In this document: positions 3,158-63,664 of the stretch, piece by piece
Numbering within the stretch: position 1 is the stretch's first letter
How the letters are laid out: each line of letters opens with the position of its first letter
Virus record (IMG/VR): IMGVR_UViG_2675903691_000001
Coordinates: 5,365-69,364 of that record
DNA: 64,000 nt
DNA from: a virus
Taxonomy: Duplodnaviria; Caudoviricetes
Reading direction: 5' to 3' (one strand)
The notes under the pieces: generated by a model
What the model was told of the DNA's origin: nothing
Databases searched by the model: none
What the model saw: only the letters and a program-made list of their open reading frames with translations
Position numbers and translations under genes: made by a program

Positions 3158-4624
3158 CTAGAACGCTCCAGAATACGGCGAGTATTCATTCTTCATCCAG
3201 TCTTGACCCTTGCGAAACTGCTGCAGCACGCTGGCAACACTGGCTCCGTTCACGCCGATACCGCTTGCCATTCGCTGGCGGTCTTCGATTTCCGCCTGCC
3301 GCAAAGCGTCCTCCCATGTGCGTTGACCGGACACCACTTGCTGATGCAGGCTGGTTGCCACCGAATTGGCGTGCGACTGGCTGTCACGCACGTTCGTTAC
3401 GCCATCAGGAAACTGCTCCTTAACAGATGCCGCGATTTCTGAGTTGAGGAGATTTTGACGGTTCAGGAGTCCTTGTGTTCCCAGTTGCCGTGAATTGATT
3501 GAGGCCTGTGATCCTGTGTTTGCTGCTGGACCACGGCCATTCAACATCGCCGCCAATCGCCCCTCACGACGGTTCTGGAACGTATCCTGTCCGTTGCGCT
3601 CTGCGACCAGCGACGCCCGCTGTTCGGCCTTCTGTCCGCGGATGGCGTTCCGTTCGGCAACCGACTTGTTGGACCAGTTGGGAGACCAGCCCTCTGGCGG
3701 CAGCAGAGTCACGGTGCCATCGCCGTTGGAGCGCACATTCAGGTCGCGACCATGATTCCGCAGCATTCCCCCCAGCGTCGGAGCGGCGCCCACCTTGAAC
3801 GACTGGCCGGCAGGAACATTGGCTGGGTCGACATAGCTCGAGCCGCCATATGCCGTCGAGACGCCCTGCAGGATCGGATCACGCGGAGCCACCGGGATTT
3901 GTGGAGCCCCGGAAGCCGCCATCGGAGCCGAGTTCGCCGCCTGTCGCTCACGCAGCATTGACGCCAGTTGCGGGAGACGACCCATATCGCCCCCGCCCAT
4001 CGCCCCGTAGGAATCGAGCGGCTGATTTGCGCCAACGGGAATCGAGAACTGTGCCCCGTTGTTGAGCGTTCCCTTATCCTTCAGAGGCTGCTGATACCCG
4101 CCGGACATTCCCATTCCTTGGCCGGGGTAGTAGGGCATCTGTGGGGCTGGCGGTTGTGGAACAGCGGGTTGTTGCTGGGGTGGCTGACCAGCGCCGGGAC
4201 CGAATCGACCGGGTTGACCCGCCTGCAATGGCATCGAAGAGTGAGACAGCGGTGTCACATAACTTCGCCAATTCGGCCCAAAGTCTCTGGTGTTCATTTC
4301 ATCTTGCGTCATGAACCCTGGTGTTCCATCAATTGGATTCCGCCTGTTCTGCCATGGTGGAACTGGCGACTGTGGAGGAACCGGCGACCCTGCATTCCCG
4401 ACCGGCGGAGTCGGCCCCTGATTCCCCGCAGCCATCCACGACTGCTGCTGCCCGAGCCACTGGCTGGGAGCGCCGACCGTGTTGCCGCGGCGTTCCTGAG
4501 ACGACAGGGGCGGACGAATCACGCCGGGATTGCCATAGGCTGCCCGACCAAGGGCGGTGCTGGGAGCCCCGATCGTGCGGGGGCGTCGTTCCTGATCGGA
4601 CATCGGGCGGTACGGGAAAGCCAT
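3158..4624 (-). CDS. Q/G/P/N-rich low-complexity protein, putative internal virion/ejection protein
   Basis: 488-aa ORF with GGAG RBS, disordered composition, next to the giant virion gene. Confidence 0.65.
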   Translation of the reverse strand: MAFPYRPMSDQERRPRTIGAPSTALGRAAYGNPGVIRPPLSSQERRGNTVGAPSQWLGQQQSWMAAGNQGPTPPVGNAGSPVPPQSPVPPWQNRRNPIDGTPGFMTQDEMNTRDFGPNWRSYVTPLSHSSMPLQAGQPGRFGPGAGQPPQQQPAVPQPPAPQMPYYPGQGMGMSGGYQQPLKDKGTLNNGAQFSIPVGANQPLDSYGAMGGGDMGRLPQLASMLRERQAANSAPMAASGAPQIPVAPRDPILQGVSTAYGGSSYVDPANVPAGQSFKVGAAPTLGGMLRNHGRDLNVRSNGDGTVTLLPPEGWSPNWSNKSVAERNAIRGQKAEQRASLVAERNGQDTFQNRREGRLAAMLNGRGPAANTGSQASINSRQLGTQGLLNRQNLLNSEIAASVKEQFPDGVTNVRDSQSHANSVATSLHQQVVSGQRTWEDALRQAEIEDRQRMASGIGVNGASVASVLQQFRKGQDWMKNEYSPYSGAF

Positions 4625-27871: not shown

Positions 27872-28014
27872 GTTCGTCGTTCCTTTTGAAGGGAGAGTTG
27901 TGAATACCGTTGCCACAGAATGTCGCAACAATGCTTCTCTATCAATACAAAAACGGCCTTCAGAAGAAAACTCTCCTGAAGGCCGCCACACCCTCCCCCC
28001 GCGGGAAGACTCAC

Positions 28015-28650
28015 TTATTTCAGAATCGCCAGATCGACCAGGATGTCCTGATTGGTCTGGGCGGTCGTCTTGGCGCTCATGGCCCGACCGAGATAGTTCA
28101 GCAGGTACTTCGCCTGCGTCCCATCGGTCGTGCCAGCGGCAGCGGAAGTCAGACCGGTCCAGGGAGCAACCCGGCCGGAAGTCGTCGCCTGGCTCGTGGC
28201 AGCCGTGAGAGCGGCCAGCACGTCCCCTTCCGCGATCGAGTTGTTCGCACCACCGGCGAGGTCGGTCTTCGTCAATGACGGGCCTTTGACGGCGATCCAG
28301 AATAGATCGTTGTTCGGAACGCCGGCAGCTGGCAGATGCTCGTCCACGACGCCCGCACATTCTTCGGCGGTCACGCTGCAGTAACCATCCACCCGCTTGC
28401 CGCGATAACCGGCCGCCCACTTCACCGTCCGCTTTGGCAGCAGGGCGATCCCCGAGACGTTGCGAACCAGGATACAGGTCACCCGGCGGTTGGACCGGCG
28501 AACCTTGGCCCCCGGCGCCTGACCGGGAGCGATGTCGTCGAAGTCGGCTCGGGCCCCTTCGACAAAGGCAGCGTCCGTTGACGCGATGGTACGGCCATCG
28601 CCGGACAGAAGCGTCTTGCCCCGCTTCGGCAGTGTCGTTGCATTTTCCAT
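28015..28650 (-). CDS. Capsid decoration/cement protein
   Basis: Follows MCP; CILVRNVSG...GVVDEHLP...DLFWIAVKGP pattern. Confidence 0.7.
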   Translation of the reverse strand: MENATTLPKRGKTLLSGDGRTIASTDAAFVEGARADFDDIAPGQAPGAKVRRSNRRVTCILVRNVSGIALLPKRTVKWAAGYRGKRVDGYCSVTAEECAGVVDEHLPAAGVPNNDLFWIAVKGPSLTKTDLAGGANNSIAEGDVLAALTAATSQATTSGRVAPWTGLTSAAAGTTDGTQAKYLLNYLGRAMSAKTTAQTNQDILVDLAILK

Positions 28651-36746: not shown

Positions 36747-36775
36747 TTGACGGCAACCGCCGGCGTCAGTAATTT
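36747..36775 (+). promoter_or_regulatory. Sigma70-type promoter
   Basis: TTGACG-17 nt-TAATTT. Confidence 0.6.
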
Positions 36776-36780
36776 CGAGA

Positions 36781-36883
36781 CGTCACCCATAAGGATTCCT
36801 ACCGCAAACGCCTCTCTTTCCGGGGGTCGTCCGCGGTGGGAATCACTGTGGGTGACGCGGCCTCCGGAAAGCGGGGCTTTTTT
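36781..36883 (+). ncRNA. Putative ~100-nt hairpin sRNA with intrinsic terminator
   Basis: 11-bp plus 12-bp stems whose non-Watson-Crick pairs are G.U on +; terminator 36860-36883; starts at the predicted TSS. Confidence 0.65.
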
Positions 36884-36946
36884 GTTGCGCAGATGGGAAA
36901 GACGACGTTTACGCTTTAAAGCATAAACTCGAAGCGGGACGCAGAA

Positions 36947-39145: not shown

Positions 39146-39238
39146 AGGTCTGAACTCCGGTTTGGGTGTGATTCGCCCTGTCTCGTCAGTGTCAGGCGGG
39201 CAATCCTGACAGACCGGCCAGCGCGGCCGGTTTCGACT

Positions 39239-44470: not shown

Positions 44471-44679
44471 CTCTCGCTCTCCGGGGCCGGCTGGTTCTGT
44501 TCCTCAATTGCCTCGTCCACGCTCTCATCGAAAGACTCGGGTGCCGCAACGTCGCGGCTGAATTTGCCGTCAGGCCCAGTGAAGTTGGTGCCGTCGATGA
44601 TTTCCATTAGTACCGAGTAGGTCATCTTCCGCAGCGCCCGATACCGCCGCGCGTCCTCTTTGTCGCTGCGTTTGCTCAC
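44467..44679 (-). CDS. Hypothetical protein
   Basis: DARRYRAL motif; coupled. Confidence 0.65.
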   Translation of the reverse strand: MSKRSDKEDARRYRALRKMTYSVLMEIIDGTNFTGPDGKFSRDVAAPESFDESVDEAIEEQNQPAPESER

Positions 44680-45776
44680 GTCCCCTCCCCCCGCTGGGCA
44701 GCGATTGCGGCGTCTGCGTTCATTGCTGCGTCGATGGCTTCAATCGGACTGTCGCACCACTCAGTCTGAAACAGCGACTCAGACCCGTTGAGGCACTGAA
44801 CGGCGTACCCGCAATGAAAGTCGATACCGCGTGAACGGCGTAGTCGAAACTCGTTGGCATACATCCATTCGAATCGTTTCTCCGCAGCCGCCAGCTTCTC
44901 CCTAATGAACGACGTTGGTGACTCGGAACTGACAGGCAACATCCCACACTCTTCGGCGATATCGAACAGAGCCTTCGAGAATGCTGCCTGCGTGCCGGGT
45001 TCAATGCAGGCCCTCAGCCCCTTCTCCCGTTCTGCGGCGGCGGCGAGTTGCTGCTCAAGACCTTCGATCTTCAGTTCAAGGTCGCATCTGGCAATTCCGA
45101 AGTTGATGATATCGTCCTGGATTTCGCGTTCCTTTTCCGCAAGCTGCTGCTTGAGCTTGTTGAGCTTGGCGTCCAGCACAACGCAGATATCACCCCAGTG
45201 CGAATCAGGGGACTGCATTCCTGCGATGGCGACGAACTCTTTGCGGTACTTTTCTGCGAAATCGTTGACCTTGTTCAACCGCTCAATCTCCGCCCTCGCC
45301 TCGGAAAGTTGCTTGTCAATCTGCCCCTCTCGTTCGATGGCCCGTGGCGTCACACTCAAGTCGAGCAGCTTGACATAGCCAGGCACTTGAATATTGACCG
45401 CAAATCGCCCATGCGGTTTATGCGACGAAACGCCGATAACTTGACCTTTCAACGCCTCGCAAATCGCGTCGATCAGCGTTTGGCAATCCGCTGCTTCATC
45501 GGTCCACGGCACTGCAATCAGGTCGCAGTCCCGCTTCATTGAGCCGTGCAGCCCGACAGCGTAACCGAGCTTTCTTGCGGCCGACCATATGGCTTGGAAG
45601 TCTGGCAGACGTGGGTCGATCCACCCTTCCGCCGGATTGTCGTACATCGGTGGCGCGGTGAAGTTCGGCCATGCGGTTGCCGCAAGCTGCCCCTCCAACT
45701 CCGCGAGGCGGGCGGACTGGCCTTGCATTGCCTTGGCTACTGCGCGAGTGGTCGGGTTAATTCGTTCGCTGCTCAC
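44676..45776 (-). CDS. Mosaic protein: nucleotidyltransferase-like domain plus coiled coil
   Basis: GYAVGLHGSMKRDCDLIAVPW (GS...DxD); GTGA-coupled start. Confidence 0.55.
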   Translation of the reverse strand: MSSERINPTTRAVAKAMQGQSARLAELEGQLAATAWPNFTAPPMYDNPAEGWIDPRLPDFQAIWSAARKLGYAVGLHGSMKRDCDLIAVPWTDEAADCQTLIDAICEALKGQVIGVSSHKPHGRFAVNIQVPGYVKLLDLSVTPRAIEREGQIDKQLSEARAEIERLNKVNDFAEKYRKEFVAIAGMQSPDSHWGDICVVLDAKLNKLKQQLAEKEREIQDDIINFGIARCDLELKIEGLEQQLAAAAEREKGLRACIEPGTQAAFSKALFDIAEECGMLPVSSESPTSFIREKLAAAEKRFEWMYANEFRLRRSRGIDFHCGYAVQCLNGSESLFQTEWCDSPIEAIDAAMNADAAIAAQRGEGT

Positions 45777-46309
45777 GTCGCGCCTCCGCTGGGGGTCTTC
45801 AGTTGTTGAATCCATTCAATCCGACTGCGAATCTCGGATTCCAGTTTCGTGTCGGCATATCCAATCGCATCAACCAGCAGCGACGACTCCTTGCAGTAGA
45901 GCGTTGCGAACTTATCTGCCGGGTCGATTTCCCACAGGTTGTCGAGCCTGTCGATGAGCTTCATCACCTGCGCGTAGTGCGGTGCCTCAGTGGCATGCCT
46001 ACGGTCCCACTCCTTGCGTTCTGCTCTGGGCAGGTGGGAACCCTTCGAGGGGTTGGTGAGCCAGCCAACTGCACTGGCGACTTGCGGTCCAAATGCGTCG
46101 TGAATGTTGCCGAGAGAGACGTTGCAATCTTCGACGACATCATGGAGCCAAGCGGCGGCAATCAGTTCGTCGGTCGCAATCTTGTGAAGCGTGACCTGAC
46201 CTGCCACTCGCATTGGGTGTGTGATGTAAGGTCTGCCTGTGTACTTGCGGACCTGACCGTCGTGCATCGTCTTTGCGAATAAAGCTGCTGCCTGTACGAG
46301 AACACTCAC
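45773..46309 (-). CDS. HD-domain (p)ppGpp hydrolase-like protein (SpoT/Mesh1-type small alarmone hydrolase)
   Basis: HDGQVRK..PYITHP, LHDVVED, KLIDRLDNL. Confidence 0.85.
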   Translation of the reverse strand: MSVLVQAAALFAKTMHDGQVRKYTGRPYITHPMRVAGQVTLHKIATDELIAAAWLHDVVEDCNVSLGNIHDAFGPQVASAVGWLTNPSKGSHLPRAERKEWDRRHATEAPHYAQVMKLIDRLDNLWEIDPADKFATLYCKESSLLVDAIGYADTKLESEIRSRIEWIQQLKTPSGGAT

Positions 46310-51179: not shown

Positions 51180-51415
51180 CGCCTCGTGTTGTTTGGCAGG
51201 TTTGAACTATCCGGAAATTCCGGACAGTTGCTGTCAGTGGTTGAAACTATGCCCGTCGAGATGTGTGAAAGGTGCCCGTCTCTCCGGGCTGTCACCGCGT
51301 CCGTGCTACGTTTGCGGTTTGCTGCGGCGGCCTCCAACCTCAGAACTCACCTTCCAGTTGGAATCCCCGTCTTCAACTGATAACAGTGGAGGTGAGGGGG
51401 AACATTTCATCGAAG

Positions 51416-51659
51416 TGGTCGCGTCTGGGTTCGAACCAGAAACTACTCTCGCCTTGCAAAGCGATTTCATGCACAAGGATGGACTTTTGGCGTCGTGGGC
51501 CTGAATGCTCCACGGATCGTGGATAGCAGCCACATGCAGCCGCAGTCTCGTTTTCCGTGTTACAGTTTCGGCGACCTCCGTTCTCCACGAACGGCGCTCT
51601 GTCGTCTGAGCTACCACGCTTCCCGCCCTCATGGTGTCTGCCAATTCCACCACGCGACC
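51416..51659 (-). ncRNA. 244-nt tRNA-framed RNA with a large insert in place of the anticodon loop and a nested tRNA-like domain
   Basis: Acceptor GGTCGCG/CGCGACC plus A73; Leu-type D arm GTG-GAATTGGCAGA-CAC; T arm TCTGG-TTCGAAC-CCAGA; inner GCTC/GAGC arm and CCGTT-CGTGGAG-AACGG arm. Confidence 0.75.
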
Positions 51660-51950
51660 ATGTTGCCGCAGTTAGGGTCGCGGCTCACCCGAGTGCTGGT
51701 TAGTTCTTCATGGCTGTTCTCCTGTTGCTGTTGAATCGAAATACTGTCCTCATCCACTGCCTCAAGCCCGCGTGAACGGGCTGTCTCGGCTCAACTTGTT
51801 TCAATAAACCGCGTGATCCCTATGGGGTTGTAGAGCACTCAGACTCGCGGCATTAGGTGCTCGGCCAGCTTTCATTCCACTCGCATCTGGCCCCTGCTTT
51901 TGGTGTGGAGTGACTCAACTTGTCGCGGGCGGAAGGGCGGGGCGGCGGCG

Positions 51951-53453: not shown

Positions 53454-54245
53454 CTAGACTCCCGCCAATTGCAGTGCTGTTCCGCGAATCGTCGACACGA
53501 GCAACAACGCCTCGTCAACCCATTGCAGTGTGATTTTTGCGACCTCGCTGGTTTCCGGAGTGTCGCCAGGCTTCAGGTTCGTGAACCATAATTCGCGCGG
53601 CGATGAGGCATTGATTGGCATCTTTTTCAGCGACTCAAATTCATCCCACGGCAGATGGCATGCGTGCGCCATTGTGCCAGCGAGACACGCACATTCACCG
53701 CTGTAAGTCGAGCCGTCGATTTTGCCGTCAACGATGGCCTGCCTGAGAAATGGAATCTCATCGGGCAATTGCAGGATTGCCAGTATCAGGTCTTGGCGAA
53801 TGTGATCGAGGTTGGCTCCGTCGAGGTTGGCTCCGTAGAGGTTGGCTCCGTCGAGGTTGGCTCCGTAGAGGTTGGCTCCGTAGAGGTTGGCTCCGTAGAG
53901 GTTGGCTCGCGTGAGGTTGGCTCCGTAGAGGTTGGCTCCGTCGAGGTTGGCTCCGTAGAGGTTGGCTCCGTAGAGGTTGGCTCCGTAGAGGTTGGCTCCG
54001 TCGAGGTTGGCTCCGTAGAGGTTGGCTCCGTAGAGGTTGGCTCGCGTGAGGTTGGCTCGCGTGAGGTTGGCTCGCGTGAGGTTGGCTCGCGTGAGGTTGG
54101 CTCGCGTGAGGTTGGCTCCGTAGAGGTTGGCTCGCGTGAGGTTGGCTCCGTCCTTCACTGCCTTTTGCACCGCAGCAGAAACGTCGGTCAGATCAGATCG
54201 ATAGAGGACTGCATTGGTCCAGCGATTGAGAATCTCGATGCTCAT
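53454..54245 (-). CDS. Pentapeptide-repeat protein
   Basis: 23 ANL(TR/YG/DG/DH) repeats plus C-terminal GSTYSGECACLAGT domain. Confidence 0.92.
   Translation of the reverse strand: MSIEILNRWTNAVLYRSDLTDVSAAVQKAVKDGANLTRANLYGANLTRANLTRANLTRANLTRANLTRANLYGANLYGANLDGANLYGANLYGANLYGANLDGANLYGANLTRANLYGANLYGANLYGANLDGANLYGANLDGANLDHIRQDLILAILQLPDEIPFLRQAIVDGKIDGSTYSGECACLAGTMAHACHLPWDEFESLKKMPINASSPRELWFTNLKPGDTPETSEVAKITLQWVDEALLLVSTIRGTALQLAGV
53802..54146. repeat. 15-nt coding tandem repeat, 23 copies
   Basis: GAGGTTGGCTC-core units. Confidence 0.95.
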
Positions 54246-61284: not shown

Positions 61285-61312
61285 ACTGTCGCTCGGTTAG
61301 TGTGTGTGTTTC

Positions 61313-61355
61313 AAAAAGCCGCCGGGCTGTGCGGGCCAGCTTTGCCCGGCGGCTT
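61313..61355 (-). terminator. Intrinsic terminator, preceded by an 11-bp hairpin (61354-61381)
   Basis: 12-bp AAGCCGCCGGGC/GCCCGGCGGCTT plus U tract. Confidence 0.75.
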
Positions 61356-61384
61356 CACCAACGGTGTCCGGACCGCTGGTGACT

Positions 61385-61702
61385 TCAGCAACCCAGATGA
61401 GCCGGGTCGTAATATTCGGGGTGTTGCAGATGCACAGACTGCGACAGCCGTTCGAGCATGCAGTCAGCCAACAGGATCGCGCGACGGCAGATGAAATCGG
61501 GCCAGTGGACATCGGAGACGAACTGCTCCTCAATGATCCCCAATTCCCGAGCGACCGTGGACCTTGCCACGTTGTTGTTCGGGCAACAGTAGGGCACCAG
61601 ATGCACAGCCAGATACTCCCGCTTCGTCAGGCCATCGGCACCATTTGTTTGTCCGTAGAGAGCGGGAAACGCTGGCATCTCACTGTTCATCTTCGCGTCC
61701 AA
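61385..61702 (-). CDS. Hypothetical protein
   Basis: PAFP...GLTKREY...ADCML pattern; AGGAG RBS. Confidence 0.7.
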   Translation of the reverse strand: MDAKMNSEMPAFPALYGQTNGADGLTKREYLAVHLVPYCCPNNNVARSTVARELGIIEEQFVSDVHWPDFICRRAILLADCMLERLSQSVHLQHPEYYDPAHLGC

Positions 61703-61871: not shown

Positions 61872-62924
61872 CTACTTCCCTTTGACTCGCAGCAGTCGCA
61901 CACTGCCCTTGCGGCCGACCTGACCGATGCGTGCGGCCAATTCGTCGACCTGCTTTTGAGTGACGAGCGAGTCTTTGACGGTGATCCGATTCACCCGAAT
62001 GTCCGACTCACTGAAAGTCGCCAGTTCGTGCATGCCGATCGCGTCGAGTAATGCGTTGGTGATCTCGTCCTTGCGATCTTCCAGGGCCTTCAATTGCAGG
62101 CTGATCTCTTCCCGCTCCAGCCAGGCATTCTTCAGGTCGAGGCCCAGTTCGATCTTCGAACCCACAACACAGCCGTACATCGACGTCAGCAGCTTGCGCG
62201 TCCCAGCGTGCGTGTAGTCCGGCGGCGGGGGATCACCGTTGACGATCCGTTCAGCCAGTTCCTTCTCGGCCTCGATGATCGTCGCGATCAGTTCGTCGCT
62301 GCGGGGGACCGTGTAGATCCGCAGTCGGTTATCCGTGAAGACTGGCACATCCGCCCGTTCGGTTCCCATCACGGCCATCTGGTGCTGGCACTGATACAGC
62401 ACCGTCAACGGCACCTGATCGGTCCCATCCTCGCCGTACTTCGAATCGTCGGTCCCCGTCTTGTCGAACATCCGGTAGCCGGCGTTCTTTGACTCGACCG
62501 TCCACTCTTCCGGTTCCGGTTCAGTGCGGTAGCCGCGTCCGTCCTGGGTCGCCCCCATCCACCAGTGGTTCGGGTGGAAATACATCGTCGAGTTCGGCTC
62601 GACCTGACACTTCATCTTCTTGGAGTACAGCCGCAGCACATACGGCTCGATCTCCAGCCCGTTTGACATCCGCTCCTTCTGTTCCTCGCTCGGCTCGAAC
62701 GGCGGCAGTTCACCGCGGGCTTCCATGTAGCCCTGCAGGGTGGAGCAGTGCGGGTCGACGCCGCAGGCCATTGCTGACCGACTGGCACCGATGATCACCG
62801 GGCGCGGGCTGCGGTTCTGATTGAAGAATCGCAGGCTATTCCACTCCTCGCTGTGAGCTTCCGGGCCTTTGATCGGAGCCGGACCGGAGGGCCTTCTCAC
62901 GCGTGACTGTTGGGATGCTCCCAT
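61872..62924 (-). CDS. YqaJ/lambda-exonuclease family recombination nuclease
   Basis: IGAS, GLEIEP, GATQDG, VESKN, YQCQHQM. Confidence 0.88.
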   Translation of the reverse strand: MGASQQSRVRRPSGPAPIKGPEAHSEEWNSLRFFNQNRSPRPVIIGASRSAMACGVDPHCSTLQGYMEARGELPPFEPSEEQKERMSNGLEIEPYVLRLYSKKMKCQVEPNSTMYFHPNHWWMGATQDGRGYRTEPEPEEWTVESKNAGYRMFDKTGTDDSKYGEDGTDQVPLTVLYQCQHQMAVMGTERADVPVFTDNRLRIYTVPRSDELIATIIEAEKELAERIVNGDPPPPDYTHAGTRKLLTSMYGCVVGSKIELGLDLKNAWLEREEISLQLKALEDRKDEITNALLDAIGMHELATFSESDIRVNRITVKDSLVTQKQVDELAARIGQVGRKGSVRLLRVKGK

Positions 62925-63099
62925 AATTCTTTCCGTGGGTTGGTGAGTGTGAATCGAGTTCCATGCGGCGAATCGCAAGGTCTCCAGGGGCGTCGAATCC
63001 GAGCCGGACTCGGTTGCGTCCGACCTGAATGACCGTGATGACGATCCCCTCGCCGATGAGGATGCTTTCGCCCGCTTTGCGTGTGAGAACCAGCATCAT
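62836..63099 (-). CDS. csrA: CsrA-like carbon storage regulator
   Basis: MLVLTRKAGESILIG...VRLGFDAP...IRRMEL. Confidence 0.9.
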   Translation of the reverse strand: MMLVLTRKAGESILIGEGIVITVIQVGRNRVRLGFDAPGDLAIRRMELDSHSPTHGKNYGSIPTVTREKALRSGSDQRPGSSQRGVE

Positions 63100-63193: not shown

Positions 63194-63421
63194 TCACTCC
63201 GTCAAGTCATCAATGACGTGCGTCGGTGGATTCAATGCAACCTGCAGGTCATACGTCGCCCGCAACAGGTCGATTGCGGCATCGAGGTCCATATGAACCA
63301 TTCGCAACAGATGGGCCGCACGCATGAGATCGAGGGTGTTGAACTGGGCCGCGATGTCATGCAGCACCGGAGCCCCGTTAGTGTGCCGGTCGATCTTGGA
63401 TTCCGTGGATGTGACTGGCAT
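63194..63421 (-). CDS. Hypothetical protein
   Basis: GAAGG RBS, 75 aa. Confidence 0.6.
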   Translation of the reverse strand: MPVTSTESKIDRHTNGAPVLHDIAAQFNTLDLMRAAHLLRMVHMDLDAAIDLLRATYDLQVALNPPTHVIDDLTE

Positions 63422-63479: not shown

Positions 63480-63590
63480 TGGTGCTTTCGCGACAGGCTT
63501 CACTGAGAAGCCAACCCTGACGTCAGGGCCGCTGATTGTGGCTGGCCGTGTCACAGCCCTTTGGACTCAATCAGCTTGTCGCTACTCGCA
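63480..63590 (-). ncRNA. Four-way-junction RNA with loop-E motif ending in ACCA
   Basis: TGC-GAGTA-GCGACA / TGTCGC-GAAA-GCA-CCA closing three arms (8+5, 5 and 6 bp). Confidence 0.6.
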
Positions 63591-63592
63591 AG

Positions 63593-63664
63593 TGGGGGAT
63601 GCCGGCTCCGCCCCGGCTTCTTCGAGCGTATGAAGCTCGTGAGATTCTCAACCTCCCATCCCCG
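63593..63664 (-). tRNA. Non-canonical tRNA-like cloverleaf, anticodon CAT
   Basis: 72-nt canonical geometry; CGAGC-TTCATAC-GCTCG; C1:C72 mismatch; T loop GGCGGAG; lacks U8 and D-loop GG. Confidence 0.6.

What the first reader, a model, noticed from the sequence alone, without database searches (positions are those of the whole stretch)
63480..63664. Tandem non-canonical tRNA(CAU)-like cloverleaf and CCA-ending four-way-junction RNA
Seen: 63664-63593 folds with exact tRNA geometry (7/4/5/5-bp stems, 72 nt). It has anticodon CAU and an initiator-like 1:72 mismatch. All stems are intact, but the universal U8, D-loop GG and TTCRA T loop are replaced (T loop GGCGGAG). Intact stems with altered loops suggest selection on shape rather than decay. 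Two nt downstream starts a 111-nt four-way junction whose last hairpin stacks directly on the closing helix like a T arm on an acceptor, and it ends GCACCA. Inference: a processed array of tRNA mimics.
Basis: partly seen in the sequence, partly recalled or inferred. Interest (0 to 1): 0.78.

Follow-up and report, generated by a model that had tools for sequence, protein, structure and literature searches.

The report
Phage initiator tRNA with remodelled elbow
A prophage in a planctomycete-type genome carries a copy of the host's start-codon (initiator) tRNA that has kept every stem and its anticodon but lost the usual corner-forming loops; next to it lies a very stable 111-base RNA fold with no relatives, so this is an unusual variant of an ordinary phage tRNA gene rather than a new kind of RNA.

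Summary
They lie on the minus strand, about 1 kb inside the attR end of a ~70-kb prophage integrated in tRNA-Ala(GGC).

**Cloverleaf (63664-63592).** It is real and homologous to tRNA.
- A syntenic metagenomic phage contig (L008) has the same gene at the same place. That copy has canonical D and T loops and passes Rfam tRNA at 41 bits.
- The two copies share 50 of 73 bases. All 20 stem pairs are kept, 4 of them through double compensatory changes, and none is broken.
- A model built from our copy finds only the single chromosomal initiator tRNA in 100 of 151 related genomes. It shares their C1xC72 mismatch, A11:U24, A73 and CAU.
- Our copy is therefore a derived initiator-type tRNA. Its stems and anticodon are under selection, its elbow is not, and it scores below 15 bits with Rfam tRNA.

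**111-nt junction RNA (63590-63480).** It folds robustly (z -4.25) and favours the minus strand. No homologue was found in any search and it shows no tRNA signal. In L008 the same slot holds two other odd tRNA-like genes.

Expression, processing and charging could not be tested. "Array of tRNA mimics" is supported for the first element only.

The parts
63592..63664 (-). Derived initiator-type tRNA gene (tRNA-like cloverleaf, anticodon CAU, C1xC72, A73)
   Evidence: ARAGORN. The cloverleaf is the minimum-energy fold. Homologue at L008:4003-4075 scores 59 bits with model R2 and passes Rfam tRNA at 41.1 bits. Four compensatory pairs, none broken. R2 finds only chromosomal initiator tRNAs in relatives.
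63630..63632 (-). Anticodon CAU inside loop UUCAUAC (U33 and A37 kept; positions 32 and 38 changed relative to host and L008)
   Evidence: Alignment A6 printed.
63606..63612 (-). Non-canonical T loop GGCGGAG (UUCGAAU in the host-family initiator tRNAs, UUCGAGU in L008)
63645..63651 (-). Non-canonical D loop UUGAGAA (no GG; U instead of A14)
63480..63590 (-). 111-nt four-way-junction RNA domain: P1 63590-88/63485-83; GAGUA/GAAA loop 63587-83/63489-86; P2 63582-77/63495-90; long arm P3 63575-63531; P4 63530-63513 (contains the perfect palindrome CCCTGACGTCAGGG); P5 63512-63496; tail CCA 63482-80
   Evidence: Minimum-energy fold equals centroid, -49 kcal/mol, z -4.25. The same fold appears within longer contexts. 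Ranks 46 of 12,778 windows. No homologue found. The palindrome is unique in the window.
63194..63421 (-). 75-aa ORF of unknown function, first gene after the RNAs. Its ribosome-binding and start region GAAGGTACGCGCCGATG is conserved in L008 although the two ORFs differ.
   Evidence: No family hit and no relatives.
62836..63099 (-). Phage csrA
   Evidence: Pfam CsrA, 2.2e-19. The csrA-yqaJ pairing is conserved in related phage contigs.
61872..62978 (-). YqaJ-type exonuclease, probably starting internally (the database form is 299 aa). First gene of the recombination module; used to find related phages.
   Evidence: Pfam YqaJ, 2.6e-20. Homologues. Synteny with L008 by tblastx.

Best explanation
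**What the first element is.** It is a phage-borne initiator-type tRNA gene. It was inherited within a group of planctomycete phages that carry tRNA-shaped genes beside their csrA-yqaJ early recombination module.

**What changed in this phage.** The gene kept the acceptor stem with the host-style C1xC72 mismatch, A73, A11:U24, all four stems and U33-CAU-A37. The nucleotides that build the tRNA elbow (D-loop GG, T-loop U54-U55 and A58) have been replaced.

**How it probably works (inferred).**
- It is transcribed as part of the leftward early operon that starts near attR.
- RNase P cuts it out at the 5' end. An RNase Z-type cut follows the discriminator, and CCA is then added, as for the host's CCA-less tRNA genes.
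- It still acts through its anticodon and acceptor end as a Met/fMet-type tRNA. Its altered anticodon-loop flank (C38-G39 instead of A38-C39) and altered elbow may make it a poor substrate for host factors that attack or inspect normal initiator tRNA.

**The 111-nt junction.** It is a lineage-specific, independently folding RNA domain. It fills the slot where the nearest relative has two more tRNA-like genes. The same 3' cut of the tRNA would create its 5' end. It then either survives as a small stable RNA or forms the protective 5' end of the ORF75-csrA-yqaJ mRNA.

**Shown versus inferred.** Shown: homology, initiator type, stem covariation, loss of the elbow consensus, and the robust fold. 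Inferred: transcription, processing, charging, and any evasion role.
For: **Prophage context.** 44-bp direct repeats lie at the 3' end of tRNA-Ala(GGC) and 70 kb away. The neighbours are phage early genes: CsrA, YqaJ, an AAA_23 ATPase and a Dam methylase.

**Homology.**
- The syntenic homologue L008:4003-4075 scores 59.4 bits with the model built from our element and 41.1 bits with Rfam tRNA.
- Gene order tRNA-csrA-yqaJ-SSAP-AAA_23 is shared.
- 50 of 73 columns are identical.
- All 20 stem pairs are paired in both copies: 3 double changes in the anticodon stem, 1 in the T stem, 0 broken. Structures slid by 1-3 columns give 40-50% pairing.

**Initiator identity.**
- The model hits one 75-nt locus per genome in 100 of 151 genomes of the host's order at 41-47 bits. 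One of these is the host initiator at C14:217113-217187.
- It does not hit the other two host CAU tRNAs.
- Alignment A6 shows shared C1xC72, A11:U24 and A73 followed by C.

**Uneven constraint.** 5 of 7 anticodon-loop bases are kept, against 2 of 7 in the T loop and 3 of 7 in the D loop.

**3' context.** The trailer A-CUU matches that of the host initiator, and host tRNA genes encode no CCA.

**Junction RNA.** z -4.25; the fold is unchanged within 198- and 211-nt contexts; the minus strand is favoured.

**Related phages.** They carry 1-3 tRNA-shaped genes beside csrA: L008, L010, L064 and L065.

**Literature.**
- Enteric VapC cuts tRNAfMet between A38 and C39 (PMC4105405, introduction).
- Phage tRNAs carry anticodon-loop changes that evade anticodon nucleases (PMC10264068).
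- The host genome has at least 8 PIN-domain ORFs.
Against: - Only two phage copies are known, so the direction and timing of the changes are uncertain. The compensatory changes may predate the loss of the loops.
- The T loop lacks U54, U55 and A58, and position 8 is G. In bacteria these are near-universal for a tRNA used on the ribosome. Rfam tRNA scores the element below 15 bits, and ARAGORN keeps it only at its default threshold.
- No promoter-like or terminator-like site was found nearby.
- The junction RNA has no homologue, so there is no covariation evidence for it. About ten other loci in the window fold as well or better after GC correction.
- The link to VapC-type nucleases is an analogy only. 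The targets of the host's PIN proteins are unknown.
Confidence: 0.55

Rival explanations
1. Decoy or mimic. The cloverleaf is no longer used in translation. It is kept as a look-alike of initiator tRNA that soaks up or misleads a protein recognising the acceptor end or anticodon of tRNAfMet, such as a defence nuclease or toxin, the formyltransferase, or MetRS. Loss of the elbow keeps it off the ribosome.
For: - The acceptor stem, the 1:72 mismatch, A73 and the CAU anticodon are conserved while the elbow nucleotides are replaced.
- The element fails the tRNA covariance model.
- Phage tRNAs are known counter-defence tools (PMC10264068, PMC11555353).
- The host encodes at least 8 PIN-domain proteins.
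Against: - No partner protein is identified.
- The nearest relative has a canonical tRNA at the same site, so ordinary tRNA function is the ancestral state.
- Nothing shows that the RNA is abundant.
Confidence: 0.17
2. Processing punctuation. The cloverleaf is kept only as an RNase P / RNase Z cleavage signal that splits the long early transcript. The junction is the stabilising 5' cap of the downstream ORF75-csrA-yqaJ message.
For: - The element sits inside an operon with no promoter-like or terminator-like site nearby.
- The acceptor and T stems are intact.
- The junction starts 2-3 nt after the tRNA end and folds autonomously, followed by an unstructured ~60-nt linker and a conserved ribosome-binding site.
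Against: A cleavage signal needs only the acceptor-T minihelix. Yet the anticodon stem is maintained by compensatory changes and U33-CAU-A37 is conserved. Initiator-specific features (1:72 mismatch, A11:U24) are also kept.
Confidence: 0.15
3. Dying gene plus chance fold. The cloverleaf is a recently inactivated tRNA pseudogene, and the 111-nt structure is a fortuitous fold, or a set of DNA palindromes such as a protein operator, in a spacer.
For: - Only a marginal ARAGORN call, and no Rfam tRNA hit.
- The junction has no homologue, and other loci fold as well.
- P4 contains a perfect 14-bp DNA palindrome.
Against: - Nine of 14 D- and T-loop bases differ from the homologue, yet none of the 40 stem bases is unpaired. 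Neutral decay would have broken stems.
- The palindrome has no second copy in the window.
- G.U pairs and energies favour the minus-strand RNA over a strand-symmetric DNA feature.
Confidence: 0.1

Closest known systems
Phage-encoded tRNAs that replace or outlast host tRNAs attacked by anticodon nucleases (van den Berg et al. 2023, PMC10264068; Azam et al. 2024, PMC11555353)
   Same: - A tRNA gene carried by a phage, closely modelled on a host tRNA.
- It differs from the host copy at anticodon-loop flank positions (32, 38, 39).
- It sits in an early region.
   Different: - It is an initiator-type tRNA, which that survey says phages generally avoid encoding.
- The main change is in the D and T loops (the elbow), not only the anticodon loop.
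- It fails the general tRNA covariance model.
- No experiment exists for it.
Bacterial initiator tRNA (tRNAfMet) of the host family
   Same: C1xC72 mismatch, A73 followed by C-U-U, A11:U24, CAU anticodon, anticodon stem starting CGAG, and 5-nt variable region.
   Different: - G8/U14 instead of U8/A14.
- No D-loop GG.
- T loop GGCGGAG instead of UUCGAAU.
- Anticodon loop UUCAUAC instead of CUCAUAA.
- C31:G39 instead of G31:C39.
- 73 nt instead of 75 nt.
tRNAs with degenerate elbows that still function: animal mitochondrial tRNAs, and the non-ribosomal tRNA-Gly of staphylococcal cell-wall synthesis, which lacks the T-psi-C sequence (from my own knowledge, not checked here)
   Same: An intact cloverleaf and anticodon with the conserved D/T-loop interaction nucleotides missing.
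   Different: Those occur in organelles or in dedicated cellular pathways with known partner enzymes. Here the setting is a bacterial prophage and the partner is unknown.
Stable small RNAs co-transcribed and co-processed with tRNAs: phage T4 species 1 and 2 RNAs in its tRNA cluster, and tRNA 3'-trailer sRNAs such as 3'ETS-leuZ (from my own knowledge)
   Same: A structured non-tRNA RNA lying directly 3' of a tRNA, whose 5' end would be made by the tRNA 3'-processing cut.
   Different: - There is no sequence or model similarity.
- Existence as a discrete RNA is not shown.
- It has a four-way junction with a bulged-G-type internal loop.

Membership tests
tRNA (Rfam RF00005) | Cloverleaf with 7/4/5/5-bp stems and a 7-nt anticodon loop with U33 and a purine at 37 | tested here: met
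   ARAGORN drawing and minimum-energy fold. Loop is UUCAUAC. Acceptor has 6 pairs plus the C1xC72 mismatch.
tRNA (Rfam RF00005) | Score at or above the family gathering threshold (29 bits) | tested here: not met
   No hit at E<=10 in a 551-nt local search, the whole window or the own genome (lowest listed 15.1 bits). The L008 homologue scores 41.1 bits.
tRNA (Rfam RF00005) | Conserved tertiary-interaction nucleotides: U8, A14, G18-G19, U54-U55-C56, A58 | tested here: not met
   G8, U14, D loop UUGAGAA, T loop GGCGGAG. Only C56, R57 and the G53:C61 pair are kept.
tRNA (Rfam RF00005) | Common descent with bona fide tRNA genes | tested here: met
   Syntenic homologue that passes Rfam tRNA. The model built from the element hits chromosomal initiator tRNAs at 41-47 bits.
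Bacterial initiator tRNA | Unpaired 1:72 | tested here: met
   C1xC72, the same as in the nine host-family and phage sequences aligned.
Bacterial initiator tRNA | A11:U24 in the D stem, CAU anticodon, A73 | tested here: met
   Alignment A6.
Bacterial initiator tRNA | Run of G:C pairs (29:41, 30:40, 31:39) at the bottom of the anticodon stem | tested here: not met
   Ours has A29:U41, G30:C40, C31:G39. The host family itself has only two such pairs (A:U, G:C, G:C).
Bacterial initiator tRNA | Aminoacylation by MetRS, formylation, and use in the P site | not testable with these tools
   Needs biochemistry. No RNA data exist for this organism.
tRNA-like mimic (for the 111-nt junction RNA) | Acceptor/T-arm coaxial stack of about 12 bp ending in a single-stranded NCCA | tested here: inconclusive
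   P2 (6 bp) and P5 (6 bp) abut without a linker. However, the strand after P2 is GAAAGCACCA: CCA follows a further 3-bp helix, not the 12-bp stack. Host and phage tRNA genes do not encode CCA.
tRNA-like mimic (for the 111-nt junction RNA) | Detectable similarity to tRNA models, or T-loop / anticodon-loop motifs | tested here: not met
   No Rfam hit at E<=10. No ARAGORN call even at 90% threshold or with introns allowed. Terminal loops are 3, 4 and 5 nt.
Any described RNA family (riboswitch, ribozyme, sRNA) for the junction RNA | Match to an Rfam 15 covariance model | tested here: not met
   The only hit in the window is a type II hammerhead at 39172-39238.
Bulged-G (loop E / sarcin-ricin type) module | AGUA opposite GAA between two helices | tested here: met
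   Read directly from the sequence: 5' G-AGUA (63587-83) faces GAA-A (63489-86) between P1 and P2. The three-dimensional fold is not testable here.

The most novel reading that the evidence does not exclude
The elbow-less initiator tRNA is a purpose-built decoy or nuclease-proof spare. Either it is charged and used to start phage protein synthesis when a host toxin (for example a VapC-type PIN nuclease cutting at A38/C39) destroys the normal initiator tRNA, or it sequesters that toxin. The adjoining junction RNA would be a second, co-processed small RNA of the same counter-defence cassette. Together with the odd tRNA-shaped genes next to csrA in related phages (8-nt anticodon loop, long inserts), this would define a phage toolkit of deliberately non-canonical tRNAs.
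Probability: 0.15. Interest if true: 0.78.

Novelty: new variant of a known kind. Interest (0 to 1): 0.5.

Why it matters
Phage tRNAs are now seen as weapons against tRNA-cutting host defences. The published survey cited here says phages generally avoid encoding initiator tRNA (PMC10264068). This element is a natural initiator-tRNA gene in a phage. Its stems, acceptor identity and anticodon are held by selection while the normally invariant elbow has been rewritten.

If it is expressed and charged, a bacterial translation system would be tolerating, or a phage exploiting, a tRNA without the T-loop/D-loop lock. If it is not charged, it is a natural tRNA decoy.

It also shows that covariance-model annotation misses such genes. 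In addition, one group of planctomycete phages repeatedly places non-canonical tRNA-shaped genes beside a csrA-recombination module.

Tried and rejected
**DNA searches with the 281-nt region.** No match in the phage collection. A single copy in the own genome. Only two short chance matches in 60 relatives.

**Junction model R1.**
- In 150 genomes of the host family, the single hit (G099, 28.6 bits) lies inside a 691-aa membrane-protein gene and is taken as chance.
- No hit in 12 related phage loci.
- With filters off it gave a weak 20.6-bit hit at window 51561-51689, but the minimum-energy fold there does not reproduce the junction.

**Pattern scans.**
- The anticodon-arm pattern found nothing in viral contigs.
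- The acceptor/D-stem pattern found 17 loci in metagenome and genome contigs. All were unrelated tRNAs or chance matches; the best was a tRNA-Gln.
- The loop-E clamp pattern found 15 viral contigs, none with the interior structure.

**Protein searches.**
- The 75-aa ORF has no relatives in three collections.
- YqaJ found nothing in viral contigs and only one distant hit in 400 genomes of the phylum.

**Other checks that led nowhere.**
- Smith-Waterman comparison of the junction with the intergenic regions of relatives was not significant. The one L012 match lies inside an ORF.
- Sequencing runs: no RNA holder is listed; the only holder is the probable source DNA run.
- Promoter and terminator consensus scans found nothing in the window region or in L008.
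- CsrA-sponge idea for the junction RNA: it contains no GGA motif at all, so this was dropped.
- Operator idea for the 14-bp palindrome: there is no second copy in the window.
- A phage CCA-adding enzyme was suspected in the HD plus nucleotidyltransferase-like gene pair at 44676-46309. Pfam finds only an HD_4 (SpoT-type) domain.

Full report
**Setting.** The window is G000:C22:190123-254122.
- A 44-bp direct repeat equal to the 3' end of tRNA-Ala(GGC) lies at C22:184668-184711. It recurs at C22:254810-254853, about 700 nt beyond the window end.
- The window therefore lies inside a ~70-kb prophage, and the finding sits about 1 kb from its attR end.
- Genes here run on the minus strand. An HTH_17-like small ORF and two small ORFs lie upstream. 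The two RNA elements follow, then a 75-aa ORF, csrA, a YqaJ exonuclease, a conserved 360-aa protein, an AAA_23 ATPase and a Dam methylase.
- Base composition by codon position favours the minus-strand reading of the small ORFs.

**The cloverleaf is there.**
- ARAGORN calls tRNA-Met(CAU) at 63592-63664, and the minimum-energy fold is a cloverleaf.
- For tRNA detectors it is borderline or negative. ARAGORN drops it at 103% of its threshold, whereas the homologue survives to 110%.
- The Rfam tRNA model gives nothing at E<=10. Host tRNAs score 38-81 bits.
- Chance is nonetheless excluded. ARAGORN made only 4 calls in 18.9 Mb of dinucleotide-shuffled genome, all 82-97 nt long. A homologue also exists.

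**Homologue and covariation.**
- YqaJ relatives led to a Logan contig (L008) with the same order: integrase, HTH_17, ORF, gap, small ORF, csrA, ORF, yqaJ, 357-aa protein, AAA_23.
- In the gap, L008:4003-4075 matches the model built from our element at 59.4 bits. It is a bona fide tRNA by Rfam (41.1 bits), with T loop UUCGAGU and GG in the D loop.
- The two sequences share 50 of 73 positions.
- All 20 stem pairs are standard pairs in both. Three pairs of the anticodon stem and one of the T stem differ on both sides, and none is broken. Structures slid by 1-3 columns give 40-50% pairing and no double changes.
- In contrast, 5 of 7 T-loop and 4 of 7 D-loop positions differ, while U33-CAU-A37 is identical.
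- Neutral decay strong enough to replace 9 of 14 elbow-loop bases would have disrupted stems. The stems, and probably the anticodon, are therefore under purifying selection, and the elbow is not.
- Protein similarity between the two phages begins at the tRNA. The upstream ORFs are unrelated.

**It is an initiator-type tRNA.**
- The same model, searched in 150 genomes of the host's order, hits exactly one 75-nt locus per genome in 100 of 151 genomes at 41-47 bits.
- In the own genome that locus is C14:217113-217187, one of three chromosomal CAU tRNAs. The other two are not hit.
- The alignment shows what all these chromosomal genes share with both phage copies: C1xC72, A11:U24, CAU, and A73 followed by C.
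- The trailer A-CUU is the same as in the host initiator. No host tRNA gene encodes CCA. Maturation must therefore involve an endonucleolytic 3' cut and CCA addition (inference from general knowledge of CCA-less tRNA genes).
- Both phage copies have G8/U14 in place of U8/A14.
- Only ours has also lost the D-loop GG and the T-loop consensus. Only ours has changed positions 32, 38 and 39 (UUCAUAC-G against CUCAUAA-C).
- A38/C39 is the bond cut in tRNAfMet by enteric VapC toxins (PMC4105405, introduction). Phage tRNAs are reported to carry anticodon-loop changes that defeat such nucleases (PMC10264068). The host has at least 8 PIN-domain ORFs. This link is an analogy, not a result.

**The junction RNA.**
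- Positions 63590-63480 fold, with minimum-energy fold equal to centroid, into this order of elements: a 3-bp helix, a GAGUA/GAAA internal loop, a 6-bp helix, and three hairpins with 1, 0, 0 and 0 linker bases.
- The fold scores z -4.25. It is unchanged when flanks are added.
- Three G.U pairs and a 5 kcal/mol advantage favour the minus strand.
- The internal loop fits the AGUA/GAA bulged-G module at sequence level.
- After GC correction the window ranks 46th of 12,778 in the 64 kb, behind about ten other loci. Stability alone is suggestive, not decisive.
- No homologue was found by DNA search, by covariance model in 150 genomes and 12 related phage loci, or by pattern scans.
- It matches no Rfam family and has no tRNA signal.
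- In L008 the equivalent space holds two other tRNA-shaped elements. One has a canonical T arm and a long anticodon-like arm. The other scores 39.4 bits with Rfam tRNA but has a 45-nt insert. A hairpin with a U-rich tail follows, then the same ribosome-binding/start region GAAGGTACGCGCYGATG as in ours.
- The junction is not alignable to either L008 element.

**A recurring theme in this phage group.** Twelve distinct related contigs were examined.
- L008, L010, L064 and L065 carry tRNA-shaped genes within 1 kb of csrA, and most are non-canonical in one arm.
- L010 has an 80-nt element with a 9-bp D-like hairpin.
- L064 has a 58-bit tRNA with an 8-nt anticodon loop.
- L065 has a 53-bit tRNA with a 26-nt insert.
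- L035 has another tRNA with a four-base anticodon call, further from csrA.
- Our prophage also has a tRNA-framed 244-nt RNA at 51415-51659.

**Reading.**
- The first element is best described as a derived phage initiator tRNA with a remodelled elbow. Whether it still works in translation, acts as a decoy, or only marks a processing site cannot be settled from sequence.
- Conservation of the anticodon loop core and of initiator identity elements argues for an anticodon- and acceptor-dependent role. It argues against a pure cleavage signal or a pseudogene.
- The second element is a robust, strand-specific, orphan RNA fold. Its tRNA-mimic label is not supported.
- Its position immediately after the tRNA 3' end makes co-processing the simplest way to give it a defined 5' end.
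- No RNA data exist for this organism, so transcription and processing remain untested.

Noticed in passing
window 39172-39238 (-): Type II hammerhead ribozyme, Rfam RF02276, 45.1 bits (gathering score 37), full length. It is the only Rfam family hit in the window.
   Followed up: no
window 51415-51659 (-): With introns allowed, ARAGORN calls a tRNA frame with a 151-nt insert here. It has a canonical T arm (GGTTCGAACC at 51428-51437). The junction model R1 gives a weak 20.6-bit hit at 51561-51689, sharing a 6-bp/5-nt-loop hairpin followed by GGUCGC-CGAAA, but the minimum-energy fold does not reproduce a junction.
   Followed up: partly
C22:184668-184711 and C22:254810-254853 (the second lies ~700 nt beyond the window end): 44-bp direct repeats at the 3' end of tRNA-Ala(GGC) delimit a ~70-kb prophage. 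The remnant at attR is followed by an intrinsic-terminator-like hairpin.
   Followed up: yes
L008:4076-4262: The closest related phage has two further tRNA-shaped genes after its initiator tRNA. One (about 4076-4160) has a canonical T arm and a long anticodon-like arm and is missed by ARAGORN and Rfam. The other (4164-4262) has a Leu-type D arm and a 45-nt insert and scores 39.4 bits with Rfam tRNA.
   Followed up: partly
L064:4054-4126; L065:4130-4223; L035:480-562; L010:4431-4510: Related phage contigs carry odd tRNAs, mostly beside csrA: a 58-bit tRNA with an 8-nt anticodon loop (ARAGORN four-base anticodon ggcc); a 94-nt tRNA with a 26-nt insert in the anticodon arm; another four-base-anticodon call; and an 80-nt tRNA-like with a 9-bp D-type hairpin.
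   Followed up: partly
window 62836-63099 and relatives: A csrA gene immediately upstream of, or close to, yqaJ is conserved across most related phage contigs (L008, L009, L013, L015, L016, L034, L035, L064, L065). In L010 an uncalled csrA-like ORF starts at about 4857.
   Followed up: no
G000 C18:137839-138492; C11:70746-70814; C28:64112-64186; C36:234831-234905: Elsewhere in the host genome there are low-scoring or odd tRNA hits: a cluster of weak tRNA matches including a 111-nt hit at 41.9 bits; a four-base-anticodon call (gtga) at 38.7 bits; a 74-nt 'Leu(CAG)' at 38.3 bits; and an Arg(GCG) at 44.4 bits. These may be further mobile-element tRNAs.
   Followed up: no
window 45773-46309 (-): 178-aa HD_4 (SpoT/RelA-type hydrolase) protein overlapping a 379-aa ORF with no Pfam hit. 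This could be a small alarmone hydrolase of the kind phages use against alarmone-based toxins.
   Followed up: no
window 27880-28060 (-), 36750-36920 (both strands), 54031-54151 (+), 61300-61420 (-): The most stable 111-nt windows of the prophage after GC correction (-3.8 to -5.6 sd), all stronger than the junction RNA.
   Followed up: no
window 63515-63528: A perfect 14-bp palindrome CCCTGACGTCAGGG forms the core of hairpin P4. It is unique in the window.
   Followed up: yes
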